Positions 1 through 44,686 of a stretch of DNA of 64,000 nucleotides are shown piece by piece. Position 1 is the first letter of the stretch; the number at the start of each line of letters is the position of its first letter. Source of the DNA: Squalus acanthias (lineage: Eukaryota); NCBI GenBank assembly GCA_030390025.1, contig JASTWF010000323.1:1-64000 (forward strand), read 5' to 3'. Made by a program: the position numbers and the translations under genes. The notes below the pieces were generated by a model. It made no database searches. It had not been told where the DNA came from and saw only the letters and a program-made list of their open reading frames with translations.

Positions 1-105
1 GTGCAGTTTTTGATCTTTATCATCTGGGTCCAGTGACAGGGTTTTCCAGCCCGTTAAAACAAACTTGCCTCGCCACTTCTCCCTGTCCCACGGTGGGATG
101 AGCAC
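1..105 (-). pseudogene. Cassette 3 exon C (C-terminal D8C half), frameshifted, cut by window edge
   Basis: Acceptor tttcag|GTGCTCATCCC. Reads AHPTVGQGEVARQVCFNGLE, then a 1-nt deletion relative to the paralogs (14 vs 15 nt before CCC TGT); the shifted frame continues PCHWTQMIKIKNC. Confidence 0.85.
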
Positions 106-197: not shown

Positions 198-275
198 CGT
201 TTTACCAGCCTGAGAACTGTGTTAGAGCAGTGATCGCCTGGAACCTGAGTCCTGGGAATTTCCCATCCACCAGAA
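198..275 (-). pseudogene. Cassette 3 exon B (middle D8C exon), +1 frameshift and in-frame TAA
   Basis: ttccag|TTCTGGTGGATGG...AAAACG|gtaatg. 78 nt versus 77 nt in both paralogs. Reads SGGWEIPRTQVPGDHCS; the ancestral frame ends GGC TGG TAA. Confidence 0.85.
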
Positions 276-9522: not shown

Positions 9523-9667
9523 CTTTTAAATCTGTACCATCCGTAGGCAACATCCCAATCACACTTCACTTCGTGATAGCACTGAGTCCCACTACAGTCC
9601 GTGCTCCTCCAGGGCTGCTCCAGGACTGCGTGATGTTCACACGGGTCAGTGAGTGCGGAGTCTTCGA
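9523..9667 (-). CDS. Cassette 3 exon A (N-terminal D8C half); open, but its partner exons are broken
   Basis: cactcag|TC...AAAAG|gtatcg, 145 nt, phase 1-2. EDSALTDPCEHHAVLEQPWRSTDCSGTQCYHEVKCDWDVAYGWYRFK. Confidence 0.85.
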
Positions 9668-11782: not shown

Positions 11783-12000
11783 AAATTAAAGACTTTTACT
11801 GAAATGATCTGAGATAAACAAATAAGTAAACCTCTCTCATGGGCCCATGGAAACCAGCTGGGCTTTGCTGCTGTAACATAACTTGTCTTCAGCTGCCCAG
11901 CATGAAGGGTGTAGGGAGATTGGAACTTGTAAAGGTGATTGGTCTGAGCATGATATGTTCAATATTGGGGAATGGTCTGTGTATATTGGAACTTTAATGT
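11783..12000. repeat. Duplicate of the gene's upstream region (paralog of 44905-45115 and 23345-23555)
   Basis: Shared unique sequence aaattaaagacttttactgaaatgatctgag...ccagctgggctttgctgctgtaacataacttgtcttcagct. Confidence 0.85.
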
Positions 12001-12002
12001 GC

Positions 12003-13520
12003 ATAAGGACATAAGAAATAGGAGCAGGAGTTGGCCATTCGGCCCCTCGATGCTGCTCCGCAATAAGATCATGGCTGATCATCTACTTCAACGCCACCTT
12101 CCCGCCCTATTCCCATATACCTTGTTTCCATGGTGCCCAAATATCTATCAATCTCAGGCTTAAATATACTCATCGACTGAGGATCCACAACCCTCTGGTG
12201 TAGAGAATGCCAAAGATTCACAGCCCTCCGAGTGAAGACAATTCTCCTCATCTCAGTCCTAAATGGCCGAACCGTTATCCTGAGCCTATGACCCCAATTG
12301 AAGACTCTCCAGCCAGGAAAACAGCCTCTCAGCATCTATCCTGTCAAGACCTTTAAGAATTTCATACGTTTCAATGGGATCACCTCTCATTCTTCTAAAC
12401 ATTGGAGAATATGGCCCCTTTCGACGTGATTTCTCCTCATAGGACAACACTTTCTTCATCGGAATCAATCCAGAGAACAATCGTTGCACCCGCTCTGAGG
12501 CAATTGTATCCTTCCTTAGATAAGGAGACCAAAACTGTGCACAGTACAGGTGTGGTCTCACCAGAGCCATAATTGCTGCAATAATTCCTTACTCTTATAC
12601 TCCATCCCCCTTGCAATAAAGGGTAACATACCATTTCCCCATCTAATTGCTTGTTGTACATTCAAGTTAACTTTCGGTGATTCGTGTACAAGGACCTCCT
12701 AAATCCCTCTGAATACCAACATTTATTATGTTCTCATCTTTAAAAAATGTGTTTTTTTTACCATTCTTCCTATCCAAGTGGATAATTTCACATTTCCCCA
12801 CATTATGCTCCATCTGCCACGTACTTGCTCAATTACTTAACCGGTCTATATCCCTTTGCAGCCCCCTGCGACCTCCTCACAGCTTAGAATAAGTTGAGAG
12901 GGGAAGTGAAGGTAAAAATAAGATTGGCAAAGAGTGATTATGAGAGTAAAATGGCGGTGAACATAATAGGGAACCCAAAAATGTTCTACCAGCATGTAAA
13001 CAGTAAGCGAGTGGTAAGAGGCGGGGTGGGGCCTATTAGAGACAAAGAAGGTAATATATACTTAGAGGCGCAGGGCAAGGCGAGAATAGTCAATGAGTAC
13101 TTTGTATCGGTGTTTACTAAGGAGGTGCATGCTGACAAAATATCGGTAGAAGTGGAAACGGTAGAAAGAATTGAAGGGGCGAAAATTGACAGACATGAGT
13201 TACTAGAGAGGCTTGCCATGCTTGGAGTGCACAAGTCGCCTGGGCCAAATGGCTTGCAACTCACGTTGCTAAGAGAATTGGCGGAGGAGTTAGCGGAGGA
13301 AATGTTTCCTCAAGTTCGTATTCCAATCACATTATATTTGTGTATTGTGGTTAACGACCCTTCAGCCAGTGGAAACAGATTCTCCTTATTCTCTCTATTA
13401 AAACCAGTCACGATTTTGAACACCTCAACCAAATCTCCCATAAACCTCTCTGGTCTATGCAGACAAATCCCAACTTCTCCAGTCTCTCCACATAACTGAA
13501 GTCCCTCATCCATGGCACCA
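12003..13520. mobile_element. Cluster of CR1 fragments (12003-12883 minus; ~12890-13300 plus; ~13300-13520 minus)
   Basis: RT C-terminal peptides on both strands (LYCAQFWSPYLRKD; NEYFVSVFTKE). Same arrangement at 23558-25060. Confidence 0.8.
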
Positions 13521-14566: not shown

Positions 14567-14731
14567 CTGTGCAATAAGCAGATTTACTCTTGGGTGTCGG
14601 CTTCAACTCATAAACGAAGTAACTGGTGCAGTTTTTGATCTTTATCTCCAGGTTCTCATCGCAGGGTTTACCAACCTTGGTAAAACAAATTGTCCCCGTC
14701 ATTTCTCCCTGTCCCACGGTGGGATGAGAAT
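14567..14731 (-). CDS. Cassette 2 exon C (C-terminal D8C half)
   Basis: gtttcag|AT...ACAG|gtacat, 165 nt, phase 1-1. SHPTVGQGEMTGTICFTKVGKPCDENLEIKIKNCTSYFVYELKPTPKSKSAYCT. Confidence 0.9.
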
Positions 14732-14823
14732 CTGAAACGAGGTTTATAAATATTGAAGAATGTACCGAGGTGAACAGTGCTGGACAGTGAATGTAAATCT
14801 GAGATTATAAAGTCTGAAATTAC

Positions 14824-14900
14824 CCTTTAACCAGCCTGGGTGCTTTGTGGAGCAGCGATCCTTTGGGACCTCAGTCTCGGGAATCTTCCATCCACCAGAA
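14824..14900 (-). CDS. Cassette 2 exon B (middle D8C exon)
   Basis: ttccag|T...AAGG|gtaatt, 77 nt, phase 2-1. SGGWKIPETEVPKDRCSTKHPGWLK. Confidence 0.9.
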
Positions 14901-15061
14901 CTGGAACAAAAATCACATAGTCAGCCCCTGAACTGATGGCACTTATTAACTGACAGAAAGACTGGGAACTGACTGGTTGGGAAAGGTCACACCATGTTTC
15001 TGCTCTGCAAGTTAGAGGCCGGGGTTAAATAGCTGGTTAGCGTTAAAGCAGTAGCTTGGAG

Positions 15062-15445
15062 ATTAGTAACTGTTAATATTACATTAAATTAGTAACTGTT
15101 AATATTATATTAAATTAGTAACTGATAATACTACATCATATTAGTAACTGTTAAAACTATCTTACATTAGTAACTGTTGATTCTATATTAAATTACTCAC
15201 TGTTAATACTACAAAAAATTAGTAACTTTAATACTATATTTAATTAGTGACTGCGAATACTACATTAAATTAGTTACTGCTAATACTATATTTAATTAGT
15301 GACTATTAATACTACATTAAATTAGTAACTATTAATACTGCATTAAATGAGTAACTGTTAATACTATATTAAATTACTAACTGTTAATAATATCTTAAAT
15401 TAGTGACAGTTAATACTCTATTAACTTAGTAAGTGTTAATAACAT
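15062..15445. repeat. 26-bp AT-rich minisatellite
   Basis: Tandem ATTAGTAACTGTTAATACTAYATTAA. Confidence 0.9.
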
Positions 15446-15509
15446 ATAATAATAACTTCAATTAGGTACCCCTGTAGTGTTAGTAAAGTTAGGTAATAGT
15501 CAGATAAAA

Positions 15510-18500
15510 AGAGGCATGTCATCTCAGTCCCAAGGATTGCGCATCCTGTGCCATGTGGGAAATCCAGGACGTTTCCCGTGTTCTGCTCAACCACGTGTGC
15601 AGCATGTGTGATCAGCTGGAGGAGCTCGCCTCCGGGTTTCGGAGCTTGAGCAGACGCTGGCGTCACTGCGGTGCATCCGCGAGGCTGAGGGATACGAGCA
15701 TAGCACGTTTCAGGAGGTGGTCACCCCGCAGATATGGAGTGCACAGGCAGAGAGGGAATGGGTGACCGTCAGACAGAAGAGGAGGACCAGGCAGGTAGTG
15801 CAGGAGTCCCCTGAGAGCATCTCGCTCACCAACCAGTATTCTGTTCTGAGTAGTGGTGAGGGCGATGGTTCCACTGCGGATTACAGCCGGAGACAAGTCC
15901 TCGGCATCACGGTTGTCTCATTTGAGTTGGGTGGACGGAAATAGGGAAAGCAATAGTGGTAGGGGTTTCGATTTAGTGGAGCAGACAATTGTTTCTGCGG
16001 CCGCAGATGTGACTCCAGGATGATATGTTATCTCGCTGGTGCCAGGTTTAAGCATGTCACAGAGCGGCTGCAGAACATTCTGATTGTGGAGGGTGAACAG
16101 CCAGAGGTCATGCTCCATATCATTATCAACGGAATAGGTTGAAAGAAGGATGAGGTACTACTGGCGGATTTTAGGGAGCTAGTAAAGAGATTAAAAAGCA
16201 GGACCTCAAAGGTAGTAATCTCTGGATTACTCCCGGTTCCATGCGCGAGTGAGTATAGCAATAGAAGGATAGAGCAGATGAATGCGTGGCTGGAGAGATG
16301 GTGCAGGAGGGAAGGCTTCAGACTCTTGGGGCACTGGGGCCTCTTCTGTGGCAGGTGGGTCCTGTACAGGCCAGGCGGGTTGCTCCTCAACAGAGCCATT
16401 ATCAATATCCTCGCGGGGAGATTTTCTCCTGTTATTGGGGAAGGTTTAAACTAAGTTGAGAGGGGTATGGGCACCATGATGTAGCATTAAAAAGGAGAAA
16501 TAACGGCCACAATGGATTGTGAGAGACGGATAGCACTAAATAAGAAATAGCAAGGTATTAGTTGGCATCAGGCTTGGAGAGAACACAGGATGGTATAAGT
16601 CAGGTTTACAGTTTATGCATGTGAACGCACGAAGCACAGTAATCAAGGTGTGTGAGCTTCAGGCACAAATAGTCACCGGGGAATATGATGTCATGGCAAT
16701 AACGGAGACCTAGCTCAAAAAAGAGCAGGATTGTGCATTACATATTCCTGGATATAAGGTGTTCAGGAAAGATAGGGAAGGAATGATAGGAGGTGGTGTG
16801 GCAGTATTGGTTAAGGAGAATGTTACAATGCTGGAGAGAGGGAATGTCCTGGAGGGGTCGAAGTCAGAATCAAATGTCTGGATTTAAGATAAAATAGAGG
16901 AGCCATTGCACTTCTGGGGCATTTTATAGGTCACCAAATAGTGGTAAAAATATGGAGAAGCAAACTTGCAGAGAAATTACAGAGAGATGCAAGAACTATA
17001 GAGTAGTGAGAATGGGGTAGCTCAACTATCCTAATATAGACGGGGATAGTAATTGTGCAAAGGGCAGAGAGGGGGACGAATTTCAGGAGTGTGTTCAGGA
17101 AATCTTTCTTGATCAGTATGCTTCCAGCCCAACGAGGAAGCAGGCATTGCTAGGTTAGCTTCTGGGGACTGAGTTAGGTCAAGTGGAGCAAGTGACAGTA
17201 CGTGAATATTTATGGAGCAGTGACATAGGATCATAAGGTTTAGATTAGCTCAGGAAAAGTACAAGGATCAATCTAGAGTAAAACTACTTAAGTGGGGGAA
17301 GGCCAATTTCAGTTGGATGAGAACGAATTTGGCCTGGATAAATTGGAATCAAAGATTGGCAGGCAAAAGTGTAATGGAACAATGGGCTGCATATCATGAG
17401 GAAATCTTTCAGTTACAGTCGAGTTACATTCACACTAGGGGGAAATGTATGGTAACTAAAGCCAAACCTCCCTGGATGACGAAAGAGATAAATTATAAGA
17501 TGAAGCATTAGAAGAGCGCGTATGACAGATGTCAGATCGAGAATACATCTGATAATCATGCTGAATATAAAAAGTTCAGAAGAGAAGTGAAGAAGAAAAT
17601 ATGAAGGGCAAAGCAGGATATGAGAACAGAATGGCAGCTAACTTAAAAGGTAATCCAAAAGTATTCTATAGACATAAAAACAGGTAGTAAGAGGATGTCA
17701 AGGACAGAATCAAATGTCTGGAGTTAAGATAAAAATAGAGGGGGCATTACATTACGTGGGTACTTTATAGACCACAAAATAATGGGACAAATATGGAGAA
17801 GCAAACTTGCAGAGACATTACAGAGAGATGCAAGAACTATAGAGTAGTGAGAATGGGGTACCTCAACTATCCGAATATAGACTGGGATAGTAATAGTGTA
17901 AAGGGAAGAGAGGGGAAGAATGTCTGGGTGTGTTCAGGAAATCTTTCTTGATCAGTATGCTTCCAGCCCAACGAGGAAGGAGGCATTTCTGGATCTGGTT
18001 CTGGGGAATGAGGTAGGTCAAGTGGAGCAAGTGCCAGTATGTGAATGTTTAGGGACCAGTGACGTAGTATCATAAGGGTTAGATTAGGTATGAAAAAGGG
18101 CAAGGATAAGAACATAAGAACATAAGAAATAGGAGCAGGAGTAGGCCAATCGGCCCCTCGAGCCTGCTCCGCCATTCAATAAGATCATGGCTGATCTGAT
18201 CCTAACCACCAATCTACTATCTATCACAGAACCATCTCCTGCATCTAACAGAATTGCACACACGAAATAGGAGCAGAATCAGGCTACACAGTCCCTGGGC
18301 CCGCTCCACTACCCACAGGGCCATGACCGATCCGAACCTAGACTCATGTCCAAATTCCTGCCCGCTCCCCGTAACCCTTAATGCCCTTTACTTCTAGGAA
18401 ACTGTCTATTTCTGTTTTAAATTTAATTAATGTTGTAGCTTCTACAGCTTTTTGTGGCAGCATATTCCATGGACCTACCACCCTCTGAGTGAAGTAGTTC

Positions 18501-20680
18501 CTCCTCATCTCAGTTTTGAAAGAGCAGCCCCTAGAGTAAAAATAATAAAGTGGAGGAAGGCCAAATTCAGTGGGATGAGAATGAATTTGGCCTGGATAAA
18601 TTGAAATCAAAGATTGGCAGGCAATGGAAAAATGGGCTACATTTAATGAGGAAATGTTTCAGGTACAGTCGAGGTACATTCACACTAGGGAGAAATGTAG
18701 TGTAACTAAAGCCAGTCCTCCCTGGATGACGAAAGAGATAGAGAGTAAGATGAAGCAGTAGAAGAGCGCGTATGACAGATGTCAGGTCGAGAATACATCT
18801 GATAATCATGCTAAATATAGAAAGTTCAGAAGAGAAGTGAAGAAGAAAATAGGGAGGGCAAAGTATAGTATGAAAATAGAATGGCAGCTAACATAAAAGG
18901 CAATCCAAAAGTATTCTATAGACATATAAACAGGTAGTAAGAGGACGGTGGTGCCGATTAGGAACCAAAAAGAGGACCTACGCATGGAGGCATAGGATAT
19001 GGCTGAGGTGCTAAATGAGTACTTTGCATCTGTCTTCACCAAGGAAGAGGATGCTGCCATTGATGTAGTGAACGAGGAGATAGAGGAGATACTGGATGGG
19101 ATAAAAATTGATAAAGAGGAGTTACTCGAAAGTAGGTAAGTGACCAGGTGCAGATGGGATGCATCCTTGAATGCTGCGGGAAGTGAAGTAAGAAATCGCG
19201 GAGGTACTGGCCATAATCTTCCAATCCTCCTTAGAAATGGGGGTGGTTCCAGAATACCGGAGCAATGCAAATGTTACAACCTTGTTCAAAAAATGGTGTT
19301 ACGATATTCCCAGCAACTACAGGCCTGTCAGTTTAACCCCGGTAGTGGGGAAGCCTTTAGAAACAGTAATTAGGAGAAAAATTAACAGTCACTTGGACAA
19401 GTGTGGATTAATTATCAAAGCTAAGACGCATTTATTAAAGGCAAATCGTACTGAACCAACTTGATCCAGTTTTCTGATGAGGTAACAGAGAGGGTTAATG
19501 TGGGCAATGCGTTAGACGTGGTGTACATACATTTCCAAAAGGCGTTCGACAAAGAGCCGTACAGCAGGCTTGCCAGCAAAGCTGAAGCCCATTGAATAAA
19601 AGGGACAGTGGCAGCATGGATACGAAATTGGCTAATTGACAGGATACAGAGAGTAGTGGTGAACAGAAGTTTGTCGGACAAGAGGAAGATATACAGTGGT
19701 TTTACCCAGGGGTCAGTTCTAGGACCCCTGCTTTTCTTGATATATTTTAATGACCTGGATGTGGGTGTACAGAGCACAATTTCAAAATGTGAACATGCCA
19801 CAAACTTGGAAGTATTGTTAACAGTGAGGAGCATAGTGATAGAATTCAAGAGGACATAGACAGGCTGGCGGAATGGGCGGACACGTGGCAGATGAAATTC
19901 AATGCAGAAAAGTGCGAAGTAATACATTCTTGTAGAAATAATGGGGAGATGAAATCGAAACTAAAGGGTACAATCTTAAAGTGGGTGCATGAACAGTGAC
20001 ACCAAGGCTTATATGTGCACAAGTCGTTGAAGGTGGCAAGACAGATTGAAAAAGCTTCATGAATAGAGGTATAGAGTAAAAAGTTTGGATATTGTGATGA
20101 AGCTGTCTAAAACACTGATTTGGCCACAACTGGAGTATTGTGTCCAATTCTGGGCACCGTACTTTACGATGAAAATGAATGCCTTAGAGAGGGTGCAGAA
20201 CAGGGTTACAAGAATGATTCCAGGGATAAAATATTTCAGTTTCGAGGATAGACTGGAGAAGCTGGGGTTGTTCTCCTTAGAGCAGAGAAGATTGAGAGGA
20301 GTTTTGACAGAGGTGTTCAAAATCATGAGGGGTCTGGACAAATTAGACAGAGAGAAACGGTCCCCAAAGGCAGAAGGTTCGAGAAACAGAAGACACAGAT
20401 TTAAGATAATTGGAAGAAGAAACAAAGGCAACAGAGGAAAATATTTTTTAATCAGCGAGTTGTTAAGTTCTGGAATGCACTGCCTGAAAGGGTGGGGGAG
20501 TCATAAGTAATAACGGCGTTCAGAAGGGAGTGGAGTGAGTACCCGTAGAAAAAATATTTGCAGGGCTACGGGGAAAGGGCAGGGGAGTGGAAATAACTGA
20601 AGTGCTCTTGCAGAGAGCTGGCACGCGTTCCACGGGCCGAATGGCGTTCTTCCGTGCTGTAACAATACTATGTATCTATG
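15510..20680 (+). mobile_element. Near full-length decayed CR1 (paralog of 3334-9246 and 27173-31077) with an internal ~0.85-kb tandem duplication
   Basis: Same ORF1/ORF2 remnants and same intronic position. Segment ~16850-17690 recurs at ~17695-18940. Confidence 0.9.
18108..18531 (-). mobile_element. Short antisense CR1 3' end inserted in the host CR1
   Basis: aagaacataagaacataagaaataggagc tail and RT end peptide FKTEMRRNYFTQRVVGPWN on the minus strand. Confidence 0.8.
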
Positions 20681-20714
20681 AAAGGCAGAGAGTACCGGAA
20701 ACCGGGGCCCATTG

Positions 20715-21660
20715 TTTACTCTCTGTCCCCGTTCTATATTCCCCTCTATCCCGGGTATCTCCCTTTACTCTCTGTCCCCGTTCTATTTTCCTCTCTATCC
20801 CGGGTATCTCCCTTTACTCTCTGTCCCCGTTCTATATTCCTCTCTATCCCTCGTAGCTCCCTTTACTCTCTGTCCCCGTTCTATATTTCCCTCTATCCCG
20901 GGTATCTCCCTTTACTCTCTAACCCCGTTCTATATTCCCCTCTATCCCGGGTATCTCCCTTTACTCTCTGTCCCCGTTCTATATTTCCCTCTATCCCGGG
21001 TATCTCCCTTTACTCTCTAACCCCGTTCTATATTCCCCTCTATCCCGGGTATCTCCCTTTGCTCTCTGTCCCCGTTCTATATTCCCCTCTATCCCGGGTA
21101 TCTCCCTTTACTCTCTAACCCCGTTCTATATTCCCCTCTATCCCGGGTATCTCCCTTTACTCTCTGTCACCGTTCTATATCCCCCTCTATCCCGGGTATC
21201 TCCCTTTTTTTCTCTGTCCCCATTCTATATTCCCCTCTATCCCGGGTATCTCCCTTTACTCTCTGTCCCCATTCTATATTCCCCTCTATCCCGGGTATCT
21301 CCCTTTATTCTCTGACCCCATTCTATATTCCCCTCTATCCTGGGTATCTCCCTCTACTCACTGACCCCGTTCTATATTCCCCTCTATTCCGGGTATCTCC
21401 CTTTGCTCTCAAACCCCGTTCTATATCCCCCTCTATCCTGGGTATCTCCTTTTACTCTCTAACCCCGTTCTATATTCCCCTCTATCCCGGGTGTCTCCAT
21501 TTACTCTCTGTCCACGTTCTACATTCCTCTCTATCCCGGGTATCTCCATTTACTCTCTGTCTCCGTTCTATATTCCCCAATATCCCGGGTATCTCCCTTT
21601 ACTCTCTGTCCCTGTGCTATATTCCCCTCTATCTGGGGTATATCCCTTTACTCCCTGTTT
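20715..21660. repeat. 49-bp pyrimidine-rich minisatellite (CCCCGTTCTATATTCCCCTCTATCCCGGGTATCTCCCTTTACTCTCTGT), ~19 copies
   Basis: Direct tandem copies; about 1.5 copies at the paralogous site 9285-9350. Confidence 0.95.
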
Positions 21661-21835
21661 CTCTCTGCAGTGTCCGGTTGTGCCCCTTCCCCTGTATGAA
21701 CTACCTTCCCTATTTTTCTGACTGAGGATCCCGGTCTCTCTGCAGTTCCCATTCCAACACTCACACTGTAATCTTTTTTGGACATTTGCTCCTCGCTCAT
21801 CGACTATTTTATCTGTAATTTCCCCCTCACGTTAC

Positions 21836-21986
21836 CTTTTAAATCTGTACCATCCATGAACAAGTTCCTCATCACATTTCCACTTCTCATGGCCGACGCA
21901 CTGAGTCCAACTACAGTCCGTGCTCCTCCAGGGCTGGTCCAGGACTGTGTGATTTACACACGGTTCAGTGGGTGCGGAGCCTGCGA
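21836..21986 (-). CDS. Cassette 2 exon A (N-terminal D8C half)
   Basis: cactcag|TC...AAAAG|gtaacg, 151 nt, phase 1-2. AGSAPTEPCVNHTVLDQPWRSTDCSWTQCVGHEKWKCDEELVHGWYRFK. Confidence 0.9.
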
Positions 21987-22558
21987 CTGAGTGACAGAAT
22001 GATGTTTCATGTTATTATAAAGTAGAGTTAATATTACACAGCGGCTTGTACACCCCGAAGCACCAATAACCTTTGTCACACTCTCCGCACTGTTAGATAA
22101 TCCTCAAATGAAAACTGGAAACTTTCCTCCCTCTCTCAACTTTATTTCCATCTCTCTCCCAGCCCAGCCTCCCCTCTAACTCTCTGTTCACTGACAGTTC
22201 TCCCTATTCTAGATCAACCCTTATCTCTCAGGTAACAGAAAGCAGCAAAGTCCTCAGCTTCACTTCGTTCAATAGAAAAGCTGGAAATGTAAAGCAGGAA
22301 TTTAGCTATTGTGTTAACCAGGCACTGTTCTGTGTCCCTAAAAGTTGGGCTCCGTTTTACTTCGATTAACACAGAGACTCAGGATGTCCGGATCACTCTC
22401 ACACTCCCCCTCTCTCCTCACAGACTGATCTCTCTGTTCTACATTAACTGTTATGTACCAGCTACAGAGCGCCGTGTGCCAGGGTAAGTTTCAGTCTGCA
22501 GCTCCCGCTGGCACATCCAAAATTTGGTCTCCTCCTCCTGCACCTGCAGACTGAGCTG

Positions 22559-22705
22559 GTGAATAGAGTGCAGATGGTGAGTGTCACTGGATGGTCAGTA
22601 AGAGATATCATGGGGTATCTCAGTCCCCAGGTGAACACTGAGCGCAAATGGTGAGGGAAACTCGATGGTCAGTGAGAGATATCATGGGGTATCTCAGTCC
22701 TGGGG
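22559..22705. repeat. 74-bp minisatellite, 2 copies
   Basis: Same unit as 32743-33106. Confidence 0.75.
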
Positions 22706-22902
22706 TGAAATTAGATTAAGAATTACTTTCTATTGCAGGTTTTCATTGAAAAACTATATATAAATATATATATATATATGAGTATTGGATATATTAATAA
22801 TAAATATATAATAAATTGGAGGCTGAATATCAAAGTTATTTTAACAGTATATTGTACAAATTGTATGATCAATATTCTGATAGAATTAATGATTATATGA
22901 AT

Positions 22903-25060
22903 ATCATAGAATCATAGAATAGTAAAGCACTGGATGAGGCTATTCCGCCCATGGAGTCTGCGCTAGCTCTTTCGAAGATCAATCCAGTTAGTCCCACTCC
23001 CCGCTCTTTTCCATATCCCAGCATTTGTTCTCCTGCAATTATTTATCCAATTCCCTTTTGAAGGCTGCTACTGAATCTGTTTCTAATACCCTATCAGGCA
23101 GTGCTTTCCAAATCCTAAACACACGTTGCATAAAAAAGCTTTATCTCGTGTCGCCTCTGGTTATTTTCCCAATCACCTTAAATCTGCGCCCTCTTGTTAT
23201 CGAACTTCAGCCAGTGGAAACAGTTTCCATATTTTCTCTATATAAACCCATCATGATGTTGATCACCTCTACCAAATCTCCTCTCAGATTTCTCTGCTCT
23301 CAGGAGAATGACCCCAGCTTTTCCAGTCTATTTTAAATTAGTCAAAATTAAAGACTTTTAAAGAAATGATCTGAGATAAAGAAATAAGTAAACAACACTC
23401 CTGGGCCAATGGTAACCAGCTGGGCTTTGCTGCTTTAACCTAACTTGTCTTCAGCTTCCCAGCATGAAGGATGTAGGGAGATTGGAACTGGGGAGGCTCT
23501 GAGCAGGTTATGGTCAATATTGGAGAATGGTCTGTATTCATTGTAACTTTAATGGGCGTAAGAACATAAGAAATAGGAGCAGGAGTAGGCCATTCGACCC
23601 CTCGAGTTTGCTTCGCAATAAGATCATTGCTGATCTTCTACCTCAGCGCCACCTTCCCGCCATAACCCATATACCTTGGTTCCATTCGTGCCAAAATATC
23701 TATCAATCTCAGTCTTCAATATATAAAATAATCGACTGAGGATCCACAATCCTCTGGTGCGGAGAATTCCAAAGATTCACAACCCTCTGAGAAAGATATT
23801 TTTCCTCATCACAGTCCTAATTGGCTGAGGCCTTATCCTGAGACTATGACACCAACTTAAGACTCTCCAGCCAGGGAAGAACAGCCTCTCAGCATCTACC
23901 CTTTAAGAATGTTATACGTTTCAATGAGATCACCTCTCATTCTTCTAAAAATTAGAGAATATGGACCCATTCGACGTGATTGCTCCTCATAGGTCAACAC
24001 TTTATTCACCGGAATCAATCTAGAGAACATTCGTTGCACTCCCTCTGAGGCACTTATTTCCATCTTCAGATAAGGACACCAAAACTGTGCACAGTACAGG
24101 TGTTGTCTCCCCAGAGTCCTATATAATTGCTGCACGAATTGCTTAGTCTGATACTCCATCCCCCTTGCAATAAAGGGTAACATACCATTTCCCCTCCTCA
24201 ATTGCTTGCTGTACCTGCGAGTTAACATTCAGTGATTAGTGTACAAGGACCTCCTAAATCCCTCTGAATACCAACATTTATTAATTTCTCAGCTTTAAAA
24301 AATGTGCTCTTTTTCCATTCTTCCTATCAAATTGGATAATTTCACATTTCCCCACATTATACTCCATCTGCCACCGACTTGCTCAATTACTTATCCGGTC
24401 TATATCACTTTGCAGCCTCCTGCGTCCTCCTCACAGCTTTGAGAGAGGATGTGAAGATGAAAATAAGATTGGCAAAGAGTGAATATGAGAGTAGAATGCG
24501 ATGAACATAAAAGGGAACCCAAAAATGTTCTACCAGCATGTAAACAGAAAGCGGGTAGTAAGAGGCGGGGTGGGGCCTATTAGAGACAAAGAGGTGATAT
24601 ATGCTTAGAGGCGCAGGGCAAGCCGAGAATACTCAATGAGTTCTTTGTATCGGTGTTTACTAAGGAGGTTGGTGCTGACAAAATATCGGTAGAAGTGGAA
24701 ACGCTAGAAGCAATGGAAGGGGTGAAAATTGATAGACAGGAGGTACTGAGAGGCTGGGTATGCTTAGAGTGGACAAGTCGCCTCGTCCAGATGGCTTGCA
24801 TACGAGGTTGCTAAGGGAATTGGGGGAGGAGTTAGCGGAAGGAAATGTTTCCTCATGTTCTTATTCCAATCACATTATATCTGAGTCCTCTGGTTACCGA
24901 CCCTTCAGCCACTGGAAACAGATTCTCCTTATTTACTCTATTAAAACCAGTCACGATTTTGAACACATCAACCAAATCTCCCATAATCCTCTCTGATCTA
25001 TGCAGACAAATCCCAGCTTCTCCAGTCTCTCCACATAACTGAAGTCCCTCATCCATGGCA
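22903..25060. mobile_element. CR1 fragments flanking a duplicate of the upstream region (23345-23555)
   Basis: Minus-strand CR1 3' ends at ~22903-23331 and ~23558-24438, and a plus-strand fragment ~24440-24845; mirrors 11630-13520. Confidence 0.8.
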
Positions 25061-25404
25061 CCATTCTGCTTCTGCCCAATTCCAGTGCATAAAATGACCT
25101 CTCAGCATCAGCTCAACACGGAAGGGCTTCAACCTGTAAATATTCTCTCAATAACACTCAGTCTCATTAAAGTCCCATCCTTGGTGATGCTTGACTTTCA
25201 GTTTAAATACAGACACCATCGCAGTCACTTTACTGTCCCAGTGTTAGCTGGTGAGCAGCAATCAGGTTGTGGGACATTGACATCTCATCAGGGCACTCGA
25301 AGTGTCCCTCGTCCTGGTTACAGAAACACTCTCCCAGTAAGACCCCATCTGAAATTATGTGTTCAATTCTGAGAAGAGCACCTCAAGAAGGATATATTGG
25401 CCAT

Positions 25405-26010
25405 CACTCCACCCGCCCCACCCCAGAATTCCTGACCTTCTCTCATCCGCCCCGAGTTCTTGGCATTTGTCCCACAGAGTTCCTGACCTATGTCCCCGAG
25501 TTCCGGACATTTGCACTCCCCAGTCCCTGACCATTACTCCCTCGAGTTCCTGATATTTGCCCCCGCCGAGATCCTGACTTTTGTACCCTCAGAGTTCTTG
25601 GCATTTGCCCCCGAATTTCCTGACATTTGCCCTCCCCCGAGGTCTTGACCTTTGCCCCCCAATTCCTCACATTTGCCCACCTCCTAGTTCCTGACCGTTG
25701 TCCCGCGAGTTCCTGAAATTTGCCCTCCCCCGAGTTCCTGTACTTAACCTCAGTTCCTGACCTTTGACCCGCCGAGTTCCTGACCTTTGCCCCAACCCCG
25801 TGTTCCTGAACTTTGACACGCCGAGTTCCTGACTTTTGCCACCCACCGAGTTCATGACAATTGTCCCACCGAGTTCCTGACGTTTTTGCCCCCCCTACTG
25901 TGTTCCTGACCTCTGCCCACTCCCCGATTTCCTGACCTTTGCCCCCCCCCCGGAGTTCCTGACCTTTGCCCCACCCGAGTTCCTGATATTTGCCCCCACC
26001 CCCACCCCTG
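25405..26010. repeat. GC-skewed minisatellite (GAGTTCCTGACCTTTGCCCC)n
   Basis: Paralog of 13880-14560, downstream of the exon C1 donor. Confidence 0.9.
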
Positions 26011-26013
26011 TAC

Positions 26014-26178
26014 CTGTGCAATAAGCCATGTCACTCTCGGGTGTCGGCTTCAACTCATAAACGAAGTAACTGGTGCAATTTTTGATCTTTATCTCCAGGG
26101 TCTCATCGTCGGTATTTCGTTTCTCGGTAAAACAAACTGTCCTCTCCACTTCTCCCTGTCCCACGGTGGGATGAGAAC
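26014..26178 (-). CDS. Cassette 1 exon C (C-terminal D8C half)
   Basis: gtttcag|GT...ACAG|gtacag, 165 nt, phase 1-1. SHPTVGQGEVERTVCFTEKRNTDDETLEIKIKNCTSYFVYELKPTPESDMAYCT. Confidence 0.92.
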
Positions 26179-26271
26179 CTGAAACGAGGTTTGTAGATAT
26201 TGAAGAATGTAACCGAGATGAACAATGCTGGACAGTGAATGTAAATCTGAGATTATAATGTCTGAAATTAC

Positions 26272-26348
26272 CCTTTAACCAGCCTGGGTGCTTTGTGGAG
26301 CAGCGATCCTTTGGGACCTCAGTCTCGGGAATCTTCCATCCACCAGAA
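26272..26348 (-). CDS. Cassette 1 exon B (middle D8C exon)
   Basis: ttccag|T...AAGG|gtaatt, 77 nt, phase 2-1; identical to 14824-14900. Confidence 0.92.
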
Positions 26349-26509
26349 CTGGAACAACAATCACAGAGTCAGCCCCTGAACTGATGGCTTTTATTAACTT
26401 ACAGAAAGACTGGGAACAGACTGGTTTGTAAAGGTGACACCGTGTTTCTGCTCTTCAAGTTAGGGACCGGGGTTAAATAGCTGGTTTTGGTTAAAGCAGC
26501 AGCTGAGAG

Positions 26510-27110
26510 ATTAGTAACTATTAATACTACATTGAATTAGCAACTGTTAATATTATATTAAATTAGTGACAGTTAATACTGCATTAAATTAGTAACTGTT
26601 AATACTATACTTGATTAGTGACAGTTAATACTACATTAAATTAGTAACTGTTAATACTATATTTAATTAGTGACTGTTAATACTACATTAAATTAGTAAC
26701 TGTTAATACTATATTTAATTAGTGACTGTTAATACTACATTAAATTAGTAACTGTTAATACTATATTAAATTAGTAACTGTTAATACTATATTTAATTAG
26801 TGACTATTAATACTACATTAAATTAGTAACTGTTAATACTGCATTAAATTAGTAACTGTTAATACTATATTAAATTAGTGACAGTTAATGCTACTTTAAA
26901 TTAGTTTCTGCTAATACTGTATTAAATTAGTAACTGTTAATATTATATTAAATTAGTAACTATTAATACTGCATTAAATTTGTAACTGTTAATACTAAAT
27001 TAAATTAGTGACAGTTAATACTACATTAAATTAGTAAGTGTTAAAACTACGATATATTAGTAACTGTTAATAATCTATTAAATTAGTAAGTGTTAATAGC
27101 ATATATTAAT
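26510..27110. repeat. 26-bp AT-rich minisatellite
   Basis: About 22 tandem copies of ATTAGTAACTGTTAATACTAYATTAA. Confidence 0.92.
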
Positions 27111-27172
27111 AACTTCAATTAGGTACCCCTCTAGAGTTAGTAAAGTTGGGTAATAGTCAAATAAATAGAGGC

Positions 27173-30100
27173 ATGGCAGCTCAGTCCCAAGGATTCCGAA
27201 TCTTGTGCCATGTTGGAAACCCAAGACGTTTCCCGTCTGCTGCACAACCACGTGTGCAGCATGTGTCGTCAGCTGGAGGGGCTCGCATCCGGTTTTTGGA
27301 GCTTGAGCAACCGCTGGCGTCACTGCGCTGCATCCGCGAGGCTGAGAGCTACGAGCATAGCATGTTTCAGGAGGTGGTTTCCCCACAGCTAAGGAGTGCA
27401 CCGGCAGAGAGGGCATGCGTGACCGCCAGACATGAGAGGGGGACCAGGCAGGTAGTGCAGGAGTCCGCTGAGAGCATCTCGCTCACCAACCAGTATTCTG
27501 TTCTGAGTAGTGGTGAGGGCGATGGTTCCACTGTGGATTACAAACGGAGCCAAGTCCACGGCATCACGGTTGTCTCATTACAGCGGGGTGGAGGATCATA
27601 GGGAAAGCAATAGTGGTAGGGGTTTCGATTTAGTGGAGCAGACAATTGTTTCTGATGCCGCAAATGTGACTCCAGGATGATATGTTACCTCCCTGGTGCC
27701 AGGGTTAAGCATGTTACAGAGCGGCTGCAGAAGATTCTGATGGTGGAGGGTGAACAGCCAGAGGTCATGGTCCATATCATTACCAACGGAATAGGTTGAA
27801 ACACGGATGAGGTGCAGCAGGCAGATTTTAGGGAGCTGGGACAGAGATTTAAAACAGGACCTCAAAGGTAGTAATCTCTGGATTACTCCCGGTTCCATGC
27901 GCGAGTGAGTATAGAAATAGGAGGATAGAGCAGATGAATGCGTGGCTGGAGAGATGATGCAGGAGGGGAGGCTTCAGACTCTTGGGGCATGGGAGACTCT
28001 TCTGGGGCTGGTGGGACCTGTACAGGCCATACGGGTTGCACCTCAACAGAGCCAGTACCCATATCCTCGCGGGGAGATTTGCTAGTGCTGTTGAAGAGGG
28101 TTTAAACTAAGTTGACAGGGGGACAGGAAGCAGGATGTAGCATTAGGAAGGAGAAGGAACGGGCACAAAGGATTGTGAGAGACGGATAGCACTAAATAAG
28201 AAAGAGTAAGATATAAGGTGGCGTCAGACTAAGAGAGAACACAGGATGGTCTAAGACAGGTTTGCATTGTATGTATGTGAACGCACGAAGCATAGTAAAC
28301 AAGGTGCAGGCGCAAATAGCCACATAGGTGTATGTGTCCATAAGGGAGACCGTGCTCAAAAAAGAGCAGGATTGGTTATTAAATATTCCTGAATCTAAGT
28401 TGTTAAGGAAAGATAGGGAAGAAAAATAGGAGGTGGTGTGGCAGTATTGGTTAAGGAGAATGTTACAGTTCTGGAGAGAAAGGATGTCCTGTAGGGGTCA
28501 AGGACAGAATCAAATGTCTGGAGTAAAGATAAAATAGAGGTGCCATTACACTACTTGGGTACTTTATAGAACACCAAATAGTGGGAAGAAAATGGAGGAG
28601 CGAACTTGCAGAGAAATTATAGAGAGATGCAAGAACTATAGAGTAGTGATAATGGGGGACTTCAACTCTCCAAATATAGACTAGTATAGTAATAGTGTAA
28701 AGGGCAGAGAGGGGGAAGATTTTCTGGAGTGTGTAAAGGAAATCCTTCTTGATCTGTATGCTTCCAGCCCAACGAGGATGGAGGCATTGCTGGATCTGAT
28801 CCTGGGGAATGAGGACGGTCAAGTGGAGCAAGTGTCAGTCCGTGAATATTTAGGGAACATTGATTATATTATCATAAGGATCAGATTAGCTATCGAAAAG
28901 GAGAACGATCAATCGAGAGTAAAATTAATTAAGGGAGGAAGGCCAATTTCAGTGGGATGAGAATGGATTTGTCCCGGGTAAATTGGAATGAAAGATTGGC
29001 AGTCAAAACGGTAATGTAAGAATGGCCTGTCTTTAATTAGGAAGTATTTCAGGTACAGTCGAGTTACATTCACACTAGGGGGAAGGTAAGGGTAACCAAA
29101 GCCAGAACTCCCTGGATGACAAAAGAGATAGAGAGTAAGATGAAGCAGTAGAAGAGCGCGTATGACAGATGTCAGGTCGAGAATACATCTGAGAATCAGG
29201 CTAAATATAGAAAGTTCAGAAGAGAAGTGAAGAAGAAAATAGGAAGGGCTAAGCACGGTATGAGAATAGAATGGCAGCTAATATAAAGGTAATCCAAAGG
29301 TATTCTATATGCATATAAATAGTAAACAGGTATTAAGAGGATGGGTGGTGCCGATTAGGGACCAAAAATGAGCCCTACTCATGGAGGCATAGGATATGGC
29401 TGAGGTGCTAAATGAGTTTTTGCATCTGTCTTCACCAAGGAAGAGGATGCTGCCATAGACATAGTGAAGGAGGAGGTAGAGGAGGTACTAGAGGGGATAA
29501 AAACTGATAAAGAGGAGCTACTAGAAAGGCTGGCTGCACTTAAGGTAGATAAGTGACCAGGACCAGATGGGATGCATCCTAGGATGCTGCGGGAAGTGAA
29601 GTAAGAAATCGCAGAGGTACTGGCCATAATCTTCCAACCCTCCTTAGAAATCGTGGTGTTGCCAGAGGACTGGAAAATTTCAAATGTTACAGCCTTGTTC
29701 AAAAAACGGTGTTAAGATAATCCCAGCAACTACAGGCCAGTCAGTTTAACCTCGGTAGTGGGGAAGCTTTTAGAAACAATAATTAGGGAAAAAATTAACA
29801 GCCACTTGGACAAGTGTGGATTAATTAAGGAAAGCTAACACGCATTTGTTAAAGGCAAATCGTGCTGAACCAACTTGATCCAGTTTTCTGATGAGGTAAC
29901 AGAGAGGGTTGATGAGGGCAATGCGTTAGACGTGGTGTACATGGATTTACATAAGACGTGCGACAAAGAGCCATATAACAGGCTTGCCAGCAAAGTTGAA
30001 GCCCATGGAATAAAACGGACAGTGGCAGCAAGGATTCGAAATTGGCTAGTGACAGGAAACAGAGTGTAGTGGTGAACAGTTGTTTGTCGGACTGGAGGAT

Positions 30101-31077
30101 GGCCTACAGTTGTTCTCCCCAGGGGTCAGTTCTAGAGCCACTGCTTTTCTTGATATATATAAATGACTTGGATGTGGGTGTACAGGGCACAATTTCAAAA
30201 TGTGCACATGCCACAAACTTCGAAGTATAGTAAACAGTGAGGCGGATAGTGATATAATTCAAGAGGACATAGACTGGCTGGTGGAATGGGCGGCCACGTG
30301 GCAGATGAAATTTAATGCTGAAAAGTGCGAAGTAATACATTCTTGTAGAAATAATGGGGAGATGAAATATAAACTAAGGGATAAAAAATCCTAAAGTGGG
30401 TGCATGAACAGAGAGACCACGGGGTATATGTGCACAAGTCGTTGAAGGTGGCAGGACAGATTGAAAAAGCTTCATGAATAGATGTATAGAGTAAAAAGCG
30501 TGAATATTAAAATGAACCTATCTAAAACACTGGTTCGGCCTCAACTGGAGTATTGTGTCCAATTCTGGACAGCGCACTTTAGGAAGAAAATGAACGCCTT
30601 AGAGAGGGTGCAGAAAAGATTTATAAGAATGAATCCGCGGATAAGGGACTTCAGTTATGATGATAGACTGGAGAAGCTGGGGTTGTTCTCCGTAGAGCAG
30701 AGAAGAGATTTGATAGAGGTGTTCAAAATCATGAGGGGTCTGGACTGAGTAAAAAGAGAGAAACGGTTCCCATTGACAGAAGGGTCGAGAACCAGAGGAC
30801 ACAGATTTAAGGTGATTGACAGAAGAACCAAAGGCAACATAGGAAAAACTTTTTTGTTCAGCGAGTGGTTAAGATCTGGAATGCAACGCCCGAAGTTGTG
30901 GTGGTGGCAGACTCAATCAGAGCTTTCAGAAGAGCGTTGGATAAGTAACCAGCGGAAAAGTAATTGCAGGTCTACGGCGAAAGGGCGGGGAGTGGAACTG
31001 GTTGATGTAATCTTGCAGAGAGCTAGCACGGGCTAGATGGGCCTAATATCCCTCTTCCATGATGTTACCATTCTATG
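27173..31077 (+). mobile_element. Near full-length decayed CR1 LINE (~3.9 kb)
   Basis: ORF1 start ATGGCAGCTCAGTCC, esterase and RT remnants (RPQLEYCVQFW), 3' end ...ccattctatg. Confidence 0.9.
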
Positions 31078-31121
31078 AAAGACTGGGACCCGCAGAGAGA
31101 ACCGGAAAATGAGGCCCATCC

Positions 31122-31850
31122 ATTACTCTCTGTCCCCGTTCTATATTCCCCTCTATCCCGGGTATCTCCTTTTACTCTCTGTCCCCGTTCCATATACCCC
31201 TCTATCCCGTGTATCTCCCTTTACTCTCTGTCCCCGTTCTATTTTCCTCTCTATCCCGGGTATCTCATTTTACTCTCTTTCCCCGTTCTATATTCCCCTC
31301 TATCCCGGGTATCTCCCTTTATTATCTGTCCCCGTTCTATATACCCCTCTATCCGGGTATCTCCCTTTACTCTTATTCCCCGTTCTATATTCCCCTCTAT
31401 CCCGGGTATCTCTCTTTATTCTCTGTCCCCGTTCTATATTCCTCTCTATCCCGGGTATCTCCCTTTACACTCTGTCCACGTTCTGTATTCCTCTCTATCC
31501 CGGGTATTCCCCTTTACTCTCTGTTCCCATTCTATATTCTCTCTATCTCGGTATCCACCTTTACACTCTGCCCTTTTCTATAATTCCCTCTATCTTAAAG
31601 AAGGAGATAGATAGATTTCGAGACACAAAAGGAATCAAGGGGTATGGGGAGAGAGCGGGACTATGGTATTGAGATAGAGGATCAGCCATGATCATATTGA
31701 ATGGCGGAGCGGGCTCGAAAGGCCGAATGGCATCCTCCTGCACCTAGGTTTCTATGTTTCTATATTTTGGGTATCTCTCCTAACACTCTGTCCCTGTTCT
31801 ATATTCCCCTCTATCCGGGGTATCTCCCTTTAATCTCCCTGTTTCTCTCT
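31122..31850. repeat. 49-bp minisatellite interrupted by a short CR1 3' end (~31590-31765, plus)
   Basis: Same unit as 20715-21660; insert reads aagaaggagatagatagattt...ggtttctatgtttctat. Confidence 0.9.
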
Positions 31851-32019
31851 GCAGAGTCCGGTTGTAACCCTTCCCCTATTTGAACTACTTGCCCTATATT
31901 TCTGACTGATGATCCCGGTCTCTCTGCAGTTCCCATTCCAACACTCACACATCCATCTGTTTTGGACATTTACTCCTCGCTTATCGACTAGTTTATCTGT
32001 AATTTCCCCCTCACGTTAC

Positions 32020-32170
32020 CTTTTAAATCTGTACCATCCTTGAACAAGATCTTTATCACTCTTCCTCTTCTCATGAACGACGCACTTATTCTTAATACAG
32101 TCCGTGCTCCTCCAGGTGTCCTCTAGGACTGTGTGATCTTCACACGGGTCAGAGAGTGCGGAGTCTGTGA
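32020..32170 (-). CDS. Cassette 1 exon A (signal-peptide end plus N-terminal D8C half)
   Basis: ccctcag|TC...AAAAG|gtaacg, 151 nt, phase 1-2. TDSALSDPCEDHTVLEDTWRSTDCIKNKCVVHEKRKSDKDLVQGWYRFK. Confidence 0.92.
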
Positions 32171-32742
32171 CTGAGGGACAGAATGATGATTCATGTTAAT
32201 ATAAAGTGCAGTTAATGTTACAATTTGGCTTGTACCCCCCGAAGCACCAAAAACCTCAGCCTCACTTTCCGCCCTGTTAGAAATTCCCCCAAATGAAAGC
32301 TGGAAACATTCCTACTTCTCTAAACCAGAATTCCTCTGTCTCCCAGCCCAGCCTCCCCTCTAACTCTCTGCTCACAGACAGTCCTCTCTATTCTAGATTC
32401 ACCCTTAGCTCTCAGCTAACAGAAAGCTACAGAAACCTCAGCTTCACTTCGTCCAATCGAAAAGCTGCAAATGTAAAGCTGGAAGTTCACGATTCTGTAA
32501 ACCAGGCTTCGTTCTGTGTCCATAAAAGTTGGTTTCCATTTTACTTCTATTAACACAGAGACTCGGGATGACCGGCTCCCTCTCACCCTCTCCCTCCCTC
32601 CTCACAGACAGTTCTCTCTGTTCTACATTAACTGTTATGTCCCAGCTACAGAACGCCGTGTGCCCGGGTAAGTTTCAGGCTGCAGTTTCCGCGGGAACCT
32701 CCAACGTTTGGGACCCTCCTCCTGCACCTGCAGACTGAGCTG

Positions 32743-33850: not shown

Positions 33851-34442
33851 CCGAACTCGTGAATATGAAAAATAAATTTAAAGATAAATATAAGAATAGA
33901 ATATAAAGATTTCAAATAAATGACAATGGGAAATATAAACAAAAATACAAATGTAAATGATAATTTAAATGCACAAATACATAAATATAAGTATTAAATT
34001 AAAAAAAACAAATTCAGCACGCTAAATATTAGAAGGAAATATGTAAATATAAGTATAATATTTACAGTAAATATCAGTTTCTGTGCAAATAAAGAGCAAT
34101 GATTTCAGGGCATCTCAAAGGTAGTAAAATTTTTCAATTCAATTGCGGTGAAAACAGAGCCAAGGAAGGCTGAAAATATACAATATCAATCAATAATGCA
34201 AATGTTAAAGATATATTACAAATCCATAATAAATAATATCAATCAATAATGCAAATTTTAAAGATCTATTACAAATCCTTAATATATAATATCAATCAAT
34301 AATGCAAATGTTAAAGATCTATTACAAATCCATAATAAATAATATCAATCAATAATGCAAATGTTTAAGATCTATTACAAATCCTTAATAAATAATATCA
34401 ATCATCAATGCACATATGAATGATCTATTAAAAATCCTTAAT

Positions 34443-43100: not shown

Positions 43101-43319
43101 TAATATAATCAACATTGCAATATTAAAGATCTAATACTATAACATAATAAATCATATAATTAATCATTATCAATAATGAAATTGTTAAATATCTTTTATA
43201 AATGCATTATAAATAGTATTGATCAATAATGCAGATATTAAAGATCTATTGCAAATGCATAGTTCTACATGTGATCAGTAAGTAAATGTATACTATGTAT
43301 AATATTATGTAAATATGTA

Positions 43320-44272: not shown

Positions 44273-44306
44273 TCAGGTAACCGAGAATCAGCAGCAGAGT
44301 CCTCAT
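44273..44306 (-). CDS. Leader (signal peptide) coding part of exon 44322-44273
   Basis: ctttacttccag|AATATCACCCGGTGAG ATG AGG ACT CTG CTG CTG ATT CTC GGT TAC CTG A|gtaagt. MRTLLLILGYL + phase 1, joining exon A in frame to give ...ITDSALS/DPC. Confidence 0.85.
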
Positions 44307-44686
44307 CTCACCGGGTGATATTCTGGAAGTAAAGACACGGAATTTGTATTAGAGAGAGTTGAGGGAATGGGGGATCAGAGGGAACTTTAAATAGGGAGCT
44401 GGACAAGGTATCAGTGGGTATATCTATTTATAATGGGTGAGCTCTAACTCTCTTCCTCATTGAGACCCCTCTGGGAGCTCCACCTCCTTACATGTCCTTG
44501 ATAAACACCAATTCCTGACTCTCTTTCCAGCCTCCCGTTACAGAACCCTTTCTAATATTCTAACACAATTCTTTACTGAGCACAGTATTGGGTTAGGACA
44601 AGCGCTAAACACACCCTGAGTCCCTACTCAGCAAGTGACAAACTTCTGAGATTGTTCTAAAAGTCCATTCATACAAGTCTGCTTAC

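What the first reader, a model, noticed from the sequence alone, without database searches (positions are those of the whole stretch)
14567..32170. Strong excess of amino-acid-changing differences between cassettes 1 and 2; exons diverge faster than the adjacent intron
Hand alignment. Exon A: 20 replacement vs 2 silent codon differences (26/151 nt). Exon C: 15 replacement vs 1 silent (24/165 nt). There are no indels or stops. The 92-93-nt B-C intron differs at only about 6 positions. Changes cluster in patches (SWTQ/IKNK, WKCDEE/RKSDKD, MTG/VER, KVGKPC/EKRNTD, KSKS/ESDM), many of them charge changes, while WRSTDC, GWYRFK and YFVYELKPTP are invariant. Inference: positive selection on a ligand-binding surface, as in host-pathogen arms races.
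Basis: partly seen in the sequence, partly recalled or inferred. Interest (0 to 1): 0.8.

Follow-up and report, generated by a model that had tools for sequence, protein, structure and literature searches.

The report
Fast-changing loops of shark uromodulin-like domains
Two tandem three-exon units of a shark gene encode uromodulin-type domains whose conserved frame barely differs while a few loops differ strongly, likely because selection diversifies surfaces that are predicted to meet microbes, but the two-copy evidence alone is borderline and the low intron divergence likely reflects sequence exchange between copies.

Summary
The units are D10C (uromodulin/GP2-type) domains behind an intact leader exon, in a multicopy shark-and-ray family with no ZP domain in 31 of 31 hits.

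Pairwise dN/dS is about 2 but not significant (p 0.07-0.10). The whole domain differs at 12.7%, the LINE copies at 12.9%.

A narrower claim survives. Sites conserved across 51 relatives differ at 3/43 (P=0.003 low), the others at 32/87 (P=0.035 high). M1a-vs-M2a gives p=0.017 for the pair and 0.003 with a third unit. Conversion and multi-base changes weaken these tests.

The ligand is unknown. Only paralogs are seen spliced in RNA contigs, and the third unit is broken. The scan already noted this pattern elsewhere in this genome (e1-7851652). Eight literature searches returned no paper on the shark family.

The parts
44273..44322 (-). Intact leader exon; ATG at 44306, signal-peptide-like MRTLLLILGYL, phase-1 GTAAGT donor
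   Evidence: tblastn to P0023, 82% over 17 aa; frame and donor; same N-terminus in family consensus
32411..32447 (-). Decayed leader-like relic upstream of unit c2 (no ATG, stop; weak match, recognised through its position homologous to the c1 relic)
   Evidence: score 30, not above background by itself
32020..32170 (-). Unit c2 exon A (151 nt; two codons longer than in most relatives; Cys2 replaced by Ser; no sequon at the GP2 N65 position)
27173..31077 (.).
26272..26348 (-). Unit c2 exon B (77 nt), identical to c1 exon B
26150..26389 (.). Low-divergence tract (10 of 240 columns differ from c1) covering exon B, the B-C intron and flanks; likely gene conversion
26014..26178 (-). Unit c2 exon C (165 nt); Pfam D8C_UMOD E=0.003, below the curated cut-off; Cys99 replaced by Asp (Cys in 50 of 51 relatives)
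22227..22303 (-). Decayed leader relic upstream of unit c1 (start codon, frame and donor lost)
   Evidence: score 57; best other 250-nt tile 31
21836..21986 (-). Unit c1 exon A (151 nt); N-H-T sequon aligned with GP2 N65
   Evidence: paralog RNA contigs begin and end at these limits
15520..20680 (.). LINE copy in intron A-B of c1, with an internal duplication of about 1.2 kb that was left out of the divergence count
14824..14900 (-). Unit c1 exon B (77 nt)
14567..14731 (-). Unit c1 exon C (165 nt), phase-1 donor
   Evidence: paralog RNA contigs leave the genome at 14567
9523..9667 (-). Third unit c0 exon A (145 nt, open, usual family length)
198..275 (-). Unit c0 exon B, broken (78 nt: one extra base, and a stop in the family frame)
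1..105 (-). Start of unit c0 exon C, one base short, cut by the window end

Best explanation
The two units are tandem three-exon D10C domains behind one intact leader exon, and their differences fall mainly at sites that vary across the shark-and-ray family, likely because diversifying selection acts on loops predicted to be exposed while gene conversion likely evens out and shuffles pieces between copies. Shown: exon structure and phases, homology to the GP2/uromodulin D10C domain, protection of conserved sites, a low-divergence tract over exon B, and spliced paralog transcripts with B-to-C, C-to-tail and one C-to-A join. Inferred: that this gene is spliced leader-c2-c1, that its product is a secreted mucin-stalked protein, and that the loops and a switchable N-glycan site (the GP2 N65 position, present in c1 and absent in c2) face microbial adhesins or proteases, as for GP2, uromodulin and zebrafish omcins. 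The selection may be historical, because the downstream unit c0 is broken.
For: Homology; the model of relative P0025 matches the GP2/UMOD structures (E 3.5e-10). Differing sites have family entropy 1.86 vs 0.94 (p=1.5e-6). Conserved sites differ at 3/43 vs 11.2 expected (P=0.003); others at 32/87 vs 22.1 (P=0.035); without exon B, 32/70 vs 17.8 (P=0.004, post hoc). pN at non-conserved sites is 0.19-0.24, pS 0.08-0.10, background 0.123. M1a vs M2a: p=0.017 (pair), 0.0035 (three units). Joint chance of no stop and no frameshift under neutrality is about 0.126 x 0.156 = 0.02. Conversion: exon B 0/77 (0 of 20000 simulations), whereas c0 differs from c1 at 17/77 in B and 11/91 in the intron. All four combinations of two patch types occur among Mustelus domains. 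A c2-type EKRN patch occurs in other copies in DNA and RNA contigs. Among contigs laid on c1, listed variants fall at 37 of 242 exon sites and 2 of 92 intron sites (40 of 55 rows shown).
Against: Pairwise omega is not significant (p=0.07-0.10); M1a vs M2a on A+C alone gives p=0.066. Whole-domain pN 0.142 is not above background (p=0.17). The two best-supported selected codons in the pair (95, 126) are triple-base changes; adjacent mismatches are enriched in exons (14 vs 7.9 expected) and background (136 vs 102); pS also rises to 0.15-0.22 at the most variable sites (small counts). Conversion can mimic positive selection (passage in PMC3924837). N:S among contig variants is 32:6, not significant (p=0.22). 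In c0 comparisons the intron after exon A differs at 19-20%, as much as exon A. c2 has lost Cys99, c1 has D76 (G in 50 of 51 relatives), both have odd cysteine counts (9 and 7), and c0 is broken, all compatible with decay. No listed RNA contig matches c1 or c2 exactly; their exon A is 145 nt with 16-18 other letters.
Confidence: 0.6

Rival explanations
1. Patchwork without positive selection on this pair: short conversion tracts imported loop variants from older, more distant paralogs, and loops simply tolerate change (omega about 1) while the frame is purified.
For: Both residues are seen in other relatives at 25 of 35 differing sites. The c2-type patch is shared with other copies. Multi-base clustering and raised pS at the most variable sites. 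Mosaic patches in Mustelus.
Against: Import from older copies should raise silent and flanking intron divergence too. Overall pS is 0.08-0.10 and the introns next to exons A and B differ at 11-12%. The B-C intron varies little across the contig pool. It leaves open why patches are retained only in exons.
Confidence: 0.22
2. The gene is dead or dying: c1 and c2 evolved under constraint at first and then neutrally, so omega near 1 plus chance gives the pattern.
For: Whole-domain divergence equals LINE divergence. Lost conserved Cys99 and Gly76. c0 is broken directly downstream. No listed RNA contig matches exactly.
Against: All six exons are open with AG/GT sites; joint neutral chance about 0.02. 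Conserved sites are protected (P=0.003). The leader is intact. Omega is about 2, not 1 or below.
Confidence: 0.12
3. Many copy-private letters are assembly errors or a chimera of collapsed copies.
For: The best runs hold only 0.46 of the sampled words. No listed contig reproduces c1 or c2 over the variable patch. The background ts/tv ratio is low at 0.65.
Against: Errors would not spare conserved codons, exon B and the reading frame. The c2 patch is present in contigs of DNA runs from two samples and of one RNA run. The runs may be of another individual or species.
Confidence: 0.04
4. Selection is real but the partner is not a microbe, for example gamete or self-recognition proteins.
For: D10C relatives belong to ZP-module proteins, and reproductive proteins often evolve fast (own knowledge, no call). 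The tissue of the RNA runs is not on record.
Against: The relatives with tested function in the papers read (GP2, uromodulin, omc5) are antimicrobial epithelial proteins. This rival overlaps with the best explanation on everything except the target, so its weight is partly inside that estimate.
Confidence: 0.1

Closest known systems
D10C domain / decoy module of human GP2 and uromodulin (PDB 7P6R/S/T, 7PFP; PMC8930769, abstract and first part of the text read)
   Same: Sequence homology of exons A, B and C. Fold match for relative P0025. Cysteines 1, 4, 5, 8 and 10 kept. c1 has a sequon aligned with GP2 N65, the FimH-binding glycan site. The exon-C patch lies between Cys5 and Cys7, the region of the Bence Jones protein epitope in uromodulin.
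   Different: No beta-hairpin before the domain. Cys3, one of Cys6/7 and Cys9 absent, an extra Cys pair (24, 29). Several domains in tandem; no ZP domain listed for 31 of 31 relatives; multicopy and highly variable instead of single and conserved.
Zebrafish omcins (PMC11415648; abstract, introduction and results 2.1-2.6 read, parts 1-2 of 5, plus a term search)
   Same: Tandem D10C domains, clustered lineage-specific duplication; omc5 protects against bacteria.
   Different: omc5 has EGF IV, a ZP module and a predicted GPI anchor, and the family is described as teleost-specific. 'Shark', 'cartilaginous', 'positive selection' and 'nonsynonymous' do not occur in the main text; supplements not opened.
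Automatic RefSeq/UniRef models of sharks and rays ('uromodulin-like', 'GP2-like', 'OIT3-like', 'uncharacterized'; P0001-P0031)
   Same: Same leader (MRTLLLILG..), 1-4 D10C domains at 41-52% identity to the read-through query, same variable positions, Ser/Thr-rich tail.
   Different: c1 and c2 carry a two-codon insertion in exon A and lack Cys9; the tail exons of this gene would lie outside the window. The models are unreviewed predictions.
Conversion-plus-selection pattern of duplicated genes, e.g. primate red/green opsins (passages of PMC3924837)
   Same: Introns homogenised, exon patches kept different.
   Different: Here a whole exon (B) is homogenised too, the family has many copies, and no functional residue is known.

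Membership tests
D10C/D8C domain (Pfam PF23283) | Sequence homology to the GP2/UMOD domain | tested here: met
   Exon A E=1.8e-4 and B+C E=9e-6 to 7P6R; single exon C Pfam E=0.003, below cut-off; 31 of 31 relatives carry PF23283
D10C/D8C domain (Pfam PF23283) | D10C fold | tested here: inconclusive
   Met for relative P0025 (mean pLDDT 62.9, Foldseek E 3.5e-10); spliced c1 and c2 were not folded
D10C/D8C domain (Pfam PF23283) | Ten cysteines in five disulfides (1-8, 2-9, 3-6, 4-10, 5-7) | tested here: not met
   c1 has 9 Cys and c2 has 7, two of them family-specific; 3, 6 and 9 absent in both, 2 and 7 also in c2 (numbering by alignment)
GP2/uromodulin decoy module | Disulfide-bonded beta-hairpin before D10C | tested here: not met
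   Only 8 cysteine-free residues precede Cys1 in exon A, and the leader would join directly
GP2/uromodulin decoy module | High-mannose glycan bound by FimH | not testable with these tools
   Sequon present in c1 at the N65 position, absent in c2; Asn in 23 of 51 relatives
Omcin / GP2 / uromodulin proteins | EGF + ZP module + GPI anchor | tested here: inconclusive
   The 3' end of this gene is off the window; no ZP family listed for 31 of 31 relatives; paralog RNA contigs run from exon C into a DP-type tail exon
Chondrichthyan D10C + Ser/Thr-stalk proteins (automatic models) | Leader MRTLLLILG, tandem D10C domains with the extra Cys pair | tested here: met
Gene under positive selection | Whole-domain dN/dS significantly above 1 | tested here: not met
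   omega 2.0-2.1, p=0.07-0.10
Gene under positive selection | Site class with omega above 1 | tested here: met
   M1a vs M2a p=0.017 (pair), 0.066 (A+C), 0.0035 (three units); own implementation without recombination or multi-base terms; M7 vs M8 not run
Gene under positive selection | Replacement rate above the neutral non-coding rate | tested here: inconclusive
   All A+C sites P=0.10; non-conserved sites P=0.035
Gene under positive selection | Variable sites on a solvent-exposed ligand-binding face | not tested
   No coordinates available to scripts; only alignment to GP2 features described in PMC8930769

The most novel reading that the evidence does not exclude
Sharks and rays have turned the uromodulin D10C domain from a glycan-presenting decoy into a hypervariable recognition scaffold: many germline copies, diversified by selection on loops and reshuffled by gene conversion, form a secreted innate repertoire that binds microbial proteins directly, with this locus stringing two different specificities on one chain.
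Probability: 0.17. Interest if true: 0.75.

Novelty: new variant of a known kind. Interest (0 to 1): 0.4.

Why it matters
Fast-evolving mucosal defence families are common, and tandem D10C clusters with an antibacterial role are known from zebrafish. What my searches did not find in print (open-access library only) is a shark-and-ray D10C family without ZP or anchor, or site-specific selection on D10C loops. If the loops bind microbes, it would add a variable innate component to the oldest jawed-vertebrate lineage and give D10C a protein-binding role. This pair is one modest data point for that; the strong test needs the whole family.

Tried and rejected
No whole genome is held, so no DNA of paralogs or orthologs was available for codon models; homologs came as proteins only. 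Pfam found nothing for 4 of 5 single exons. The B-C intron was rejected as a neutral yardstick. Separate genes per unit were considered: c1 and c2 have only decayed leader relics, and the block homologous to the gene's upstream region ends before the leader. tblastn found no further D10C exon and no convincing tail exon elsewhere in the window; a motif scan of the spacers for a tail-exon start found none. No joint from c2 exon C to c1 exon A was listed (242 joints not shown); missing cover is not evidence. The fold search gave no match for the C-terminal part of P0025. Look-ups of earlier findings by near place, words and sequence were empty. The opening idea that exon A differences are ancient subtypes shared with Mustelus was not tested by a tree; it rests on a few motifs only.

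Full report
Anatomy. The window holds a minus-strand gene: an intact leader exon (44322-44273, MRTLLLILGYL, phase 1), then three units of exons A, B and C. These are c2 (32170-26014), c1 (21986-14567) and c0 (from 9667, running off the window). Splice sites of all A and B exons and of C1 and C2 are AG/GT, and phases allow leader-to-A and C-to-A joins. c2 and c1, with their introns and spacer, are a tandem duplicate of about 10-11.5 kb. Exon B of c0 has one extra base and a stop in the family frame, and its exon C lacks one base. Decayed leader relics lie about 240 nt before exons A of c1 and c2 (the c2 relic is not significant alone).

Identity. The contiguous B-intron-C frame of c2 found 31 proteins among 74 candidates (196-2000 residues only). 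All are from sharks and rays, and all list PF23283 (D8C_UMOD) as their only Pfam family. They consist of a leader, 1-4 domains and a Ser/Thr-rich tail. Exons A and B+C match human GP2, and a model of relative P0025 matches the GP2 and uromodulin structures. By alignment to the disulfide list in PMC8930769, both units lack Cys3, Cys6 and Cys9; c2 also lacks Cys2 (absent in 12 of 51 relatives) and Cys7 (kept in 50 of 51). c1 has a sequon at the position of GP2 N65, the FimH-binding glycan site, and c2 does not. The beta-hairpin of the decoy module is absent.

Checking the observation. Codon counts are exactly as reported. Non-coding background, with tandem arrays and the duplicated part of the c1 LINE left out, is 832/6780 (12.3%); the LINE copies alone give 499/3863 (12.9%). 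Exon A is 17.2%, exon C 14.5% and the whole domain 12.7%. The B-C intron (5/92 plus one indel) lies with exon B in a tract of 10 differences in 240 columns, below any background window of that size (minimum 15). c0 differs from c1 at 11/91 in this intron and 17/77 in exon B, so the c1/c2 identity is best read as conversion after duplication. This is inference, and general conservation of the intron contributes, since it also varies little among contigs. Pairwise dN/dS is 1.75-2.3 by counting and 2.0-2.1 by maximum likelihood, p=0.07-0.10.

A better test. I classed sites without using c1 or c2, from 51 distinct domains cut by pattern from the 31 proteins (21 from Mustelus; some domains were missed by the pattern). 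At 43 sites conserved in 90% or more of relatives, 3 differ; at the other 87 sites, 32 differ. Laying real background mismatch patterns on the exons, which keeps their two- to three-fold overdispersion, gives 11.2 and 22.1 expected: P=0.003 (fewer) and P=0.035 (more). Leaving out exon B, a choice made after seeing it, gives P=0.004. All A+C sites together give P=0.10. My own codon site models give M1a vs M2a p=0.017 for the pair, 0.066 for A+C and 0.0035 with c0 added. Purifying selection on the frame is thus well supported, and positive selection on the variable sites moderately.

Results against. The top codons of the pair are triple-base changes, mismatches cluster, and pS rises at the most variable sites. 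A passage in PMC3924837 states that conversion patterns can be misread as positive selection. In c0 comparisons the intron after exon A (19-20%) differs as much as exon A. Variants among contigs are 32 replacement to 6 silent, not significant (p=0.22; 40 of 55 rows shown). Gly76 in c1 and Cys99 in c2 are near-invariant residues that have been lost.

Public runs. Four of 20 listed runs were laid, all as contigs, with RNA status a guess. In X8 and X10 one contig each covers exactly exon A's limits with a 6-base gap and 16-18 other letters. X8 shows a joint skipping the B-C intron. Three plus four contigs leave at the exon C donor into a tail-type exon (hand-translated DPKTVPNQEP), and one X8 contig runs from an exon C end into an exon A start. 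So the family is spliced as predicted, including domain-to-domain, but the transcripts seen are paralogs, not c1 or c2. DNA runs give many different contigs per site, consistent with a multicopy family (summed depth is not a copy number). The loop between Cys5 and Cys7 appears in several versions, among them a c2-like EKRN form in X1, X3 and X10, the last with the cysteine kept. Among Mustelus models all four combinations of two patch types occur, which suggests shuffling, though these are automatic models.

Mechanism. Most likely (0.6) this is one locus of a birth-and-death family of secreted D10C proteins on a mucin-like stalk. Conversion homogenises parts, purifying selection keeps the frame, and diversifying selection drives exposed loops and toggles a glycan site. 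The microbial target is inferred from GP2, uromodulin (PMC8930769) and omc5 (PMC11415648). If all exons in the window were spliced in order, the break in c0 would truncate the protein before any tail; skipping c0 keeps the phase. Whether the gene is alive now is open.

Literature and novelty. Searches for D10C/decoy, shark with uromodulin, omcin, uromodulin with positive selection and conversion artefacts returned no paper on this family; subscription papers are mostly not held, and no supplements were opened. Other hits were seen as listings only. Earlier notes of this scan report the same family and the same exon-versus-intron pattern at other places in this genome. I saw them after my analyses and did not test their loci. 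Verdict: a new variant of a known kind, real but statistically modest at this locus; interest 0.4.

Noticed in passing
window 22227-22303 and 32411-32447: Decayed copies of the leader exon shortly before exons A. A contig in each of X1 and X3 skips 22073-22596, the stretch holding the c1 relic, so some copies may lack it.
   Followed up: partly
window 44905-46013 vs 23345-24437 and 11783-12886: The spacers between units contain a block about 80% alike to the region upstream of the gene's leader, ending at the same point. The units likely arose from duplication of the gene's 5' part with loss of promoter and leader.
   Followed up: partly
window 26179-26271: The c2 B-C intron is 93 nt, in frame and free of stops, so retention would add 31 residues. 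One X10 contig covers it unspliced, but also upstream intron (pre-mRNA or DNA).
   Followed up: partly
non-coding c1/c2 alignment: The transition/transversion ratio is only 0.65 (328/504), low for a vertebrate; unexplained.
   Followed up: no
window 22425-22490 and 32610-32675, + strand: A short stretch with plus-strand acceptor- and donor-like ends (GTAAG) in both units; no RNA contig cover in bin 22336-22494.
   Followed up: partly
window 46508-62400: Five to six degenerate tandem units of about 3 kb upstream of the gene, sharing a 160-nt element with the spacers; no D10C exons.
   Followed up: no
window 34175-43256: 53-nt satellite arrays (about 5, 41 and 60 copies) inside the first intron; an assembly join here could separate the leader from c2.
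   Followed up: no
P0025 residues 176-228 and relatives: A conserved C-terminal strand-helix-strand module after the stalk, with no fold match in the PDB search of the whole model.
   Followed up: partly
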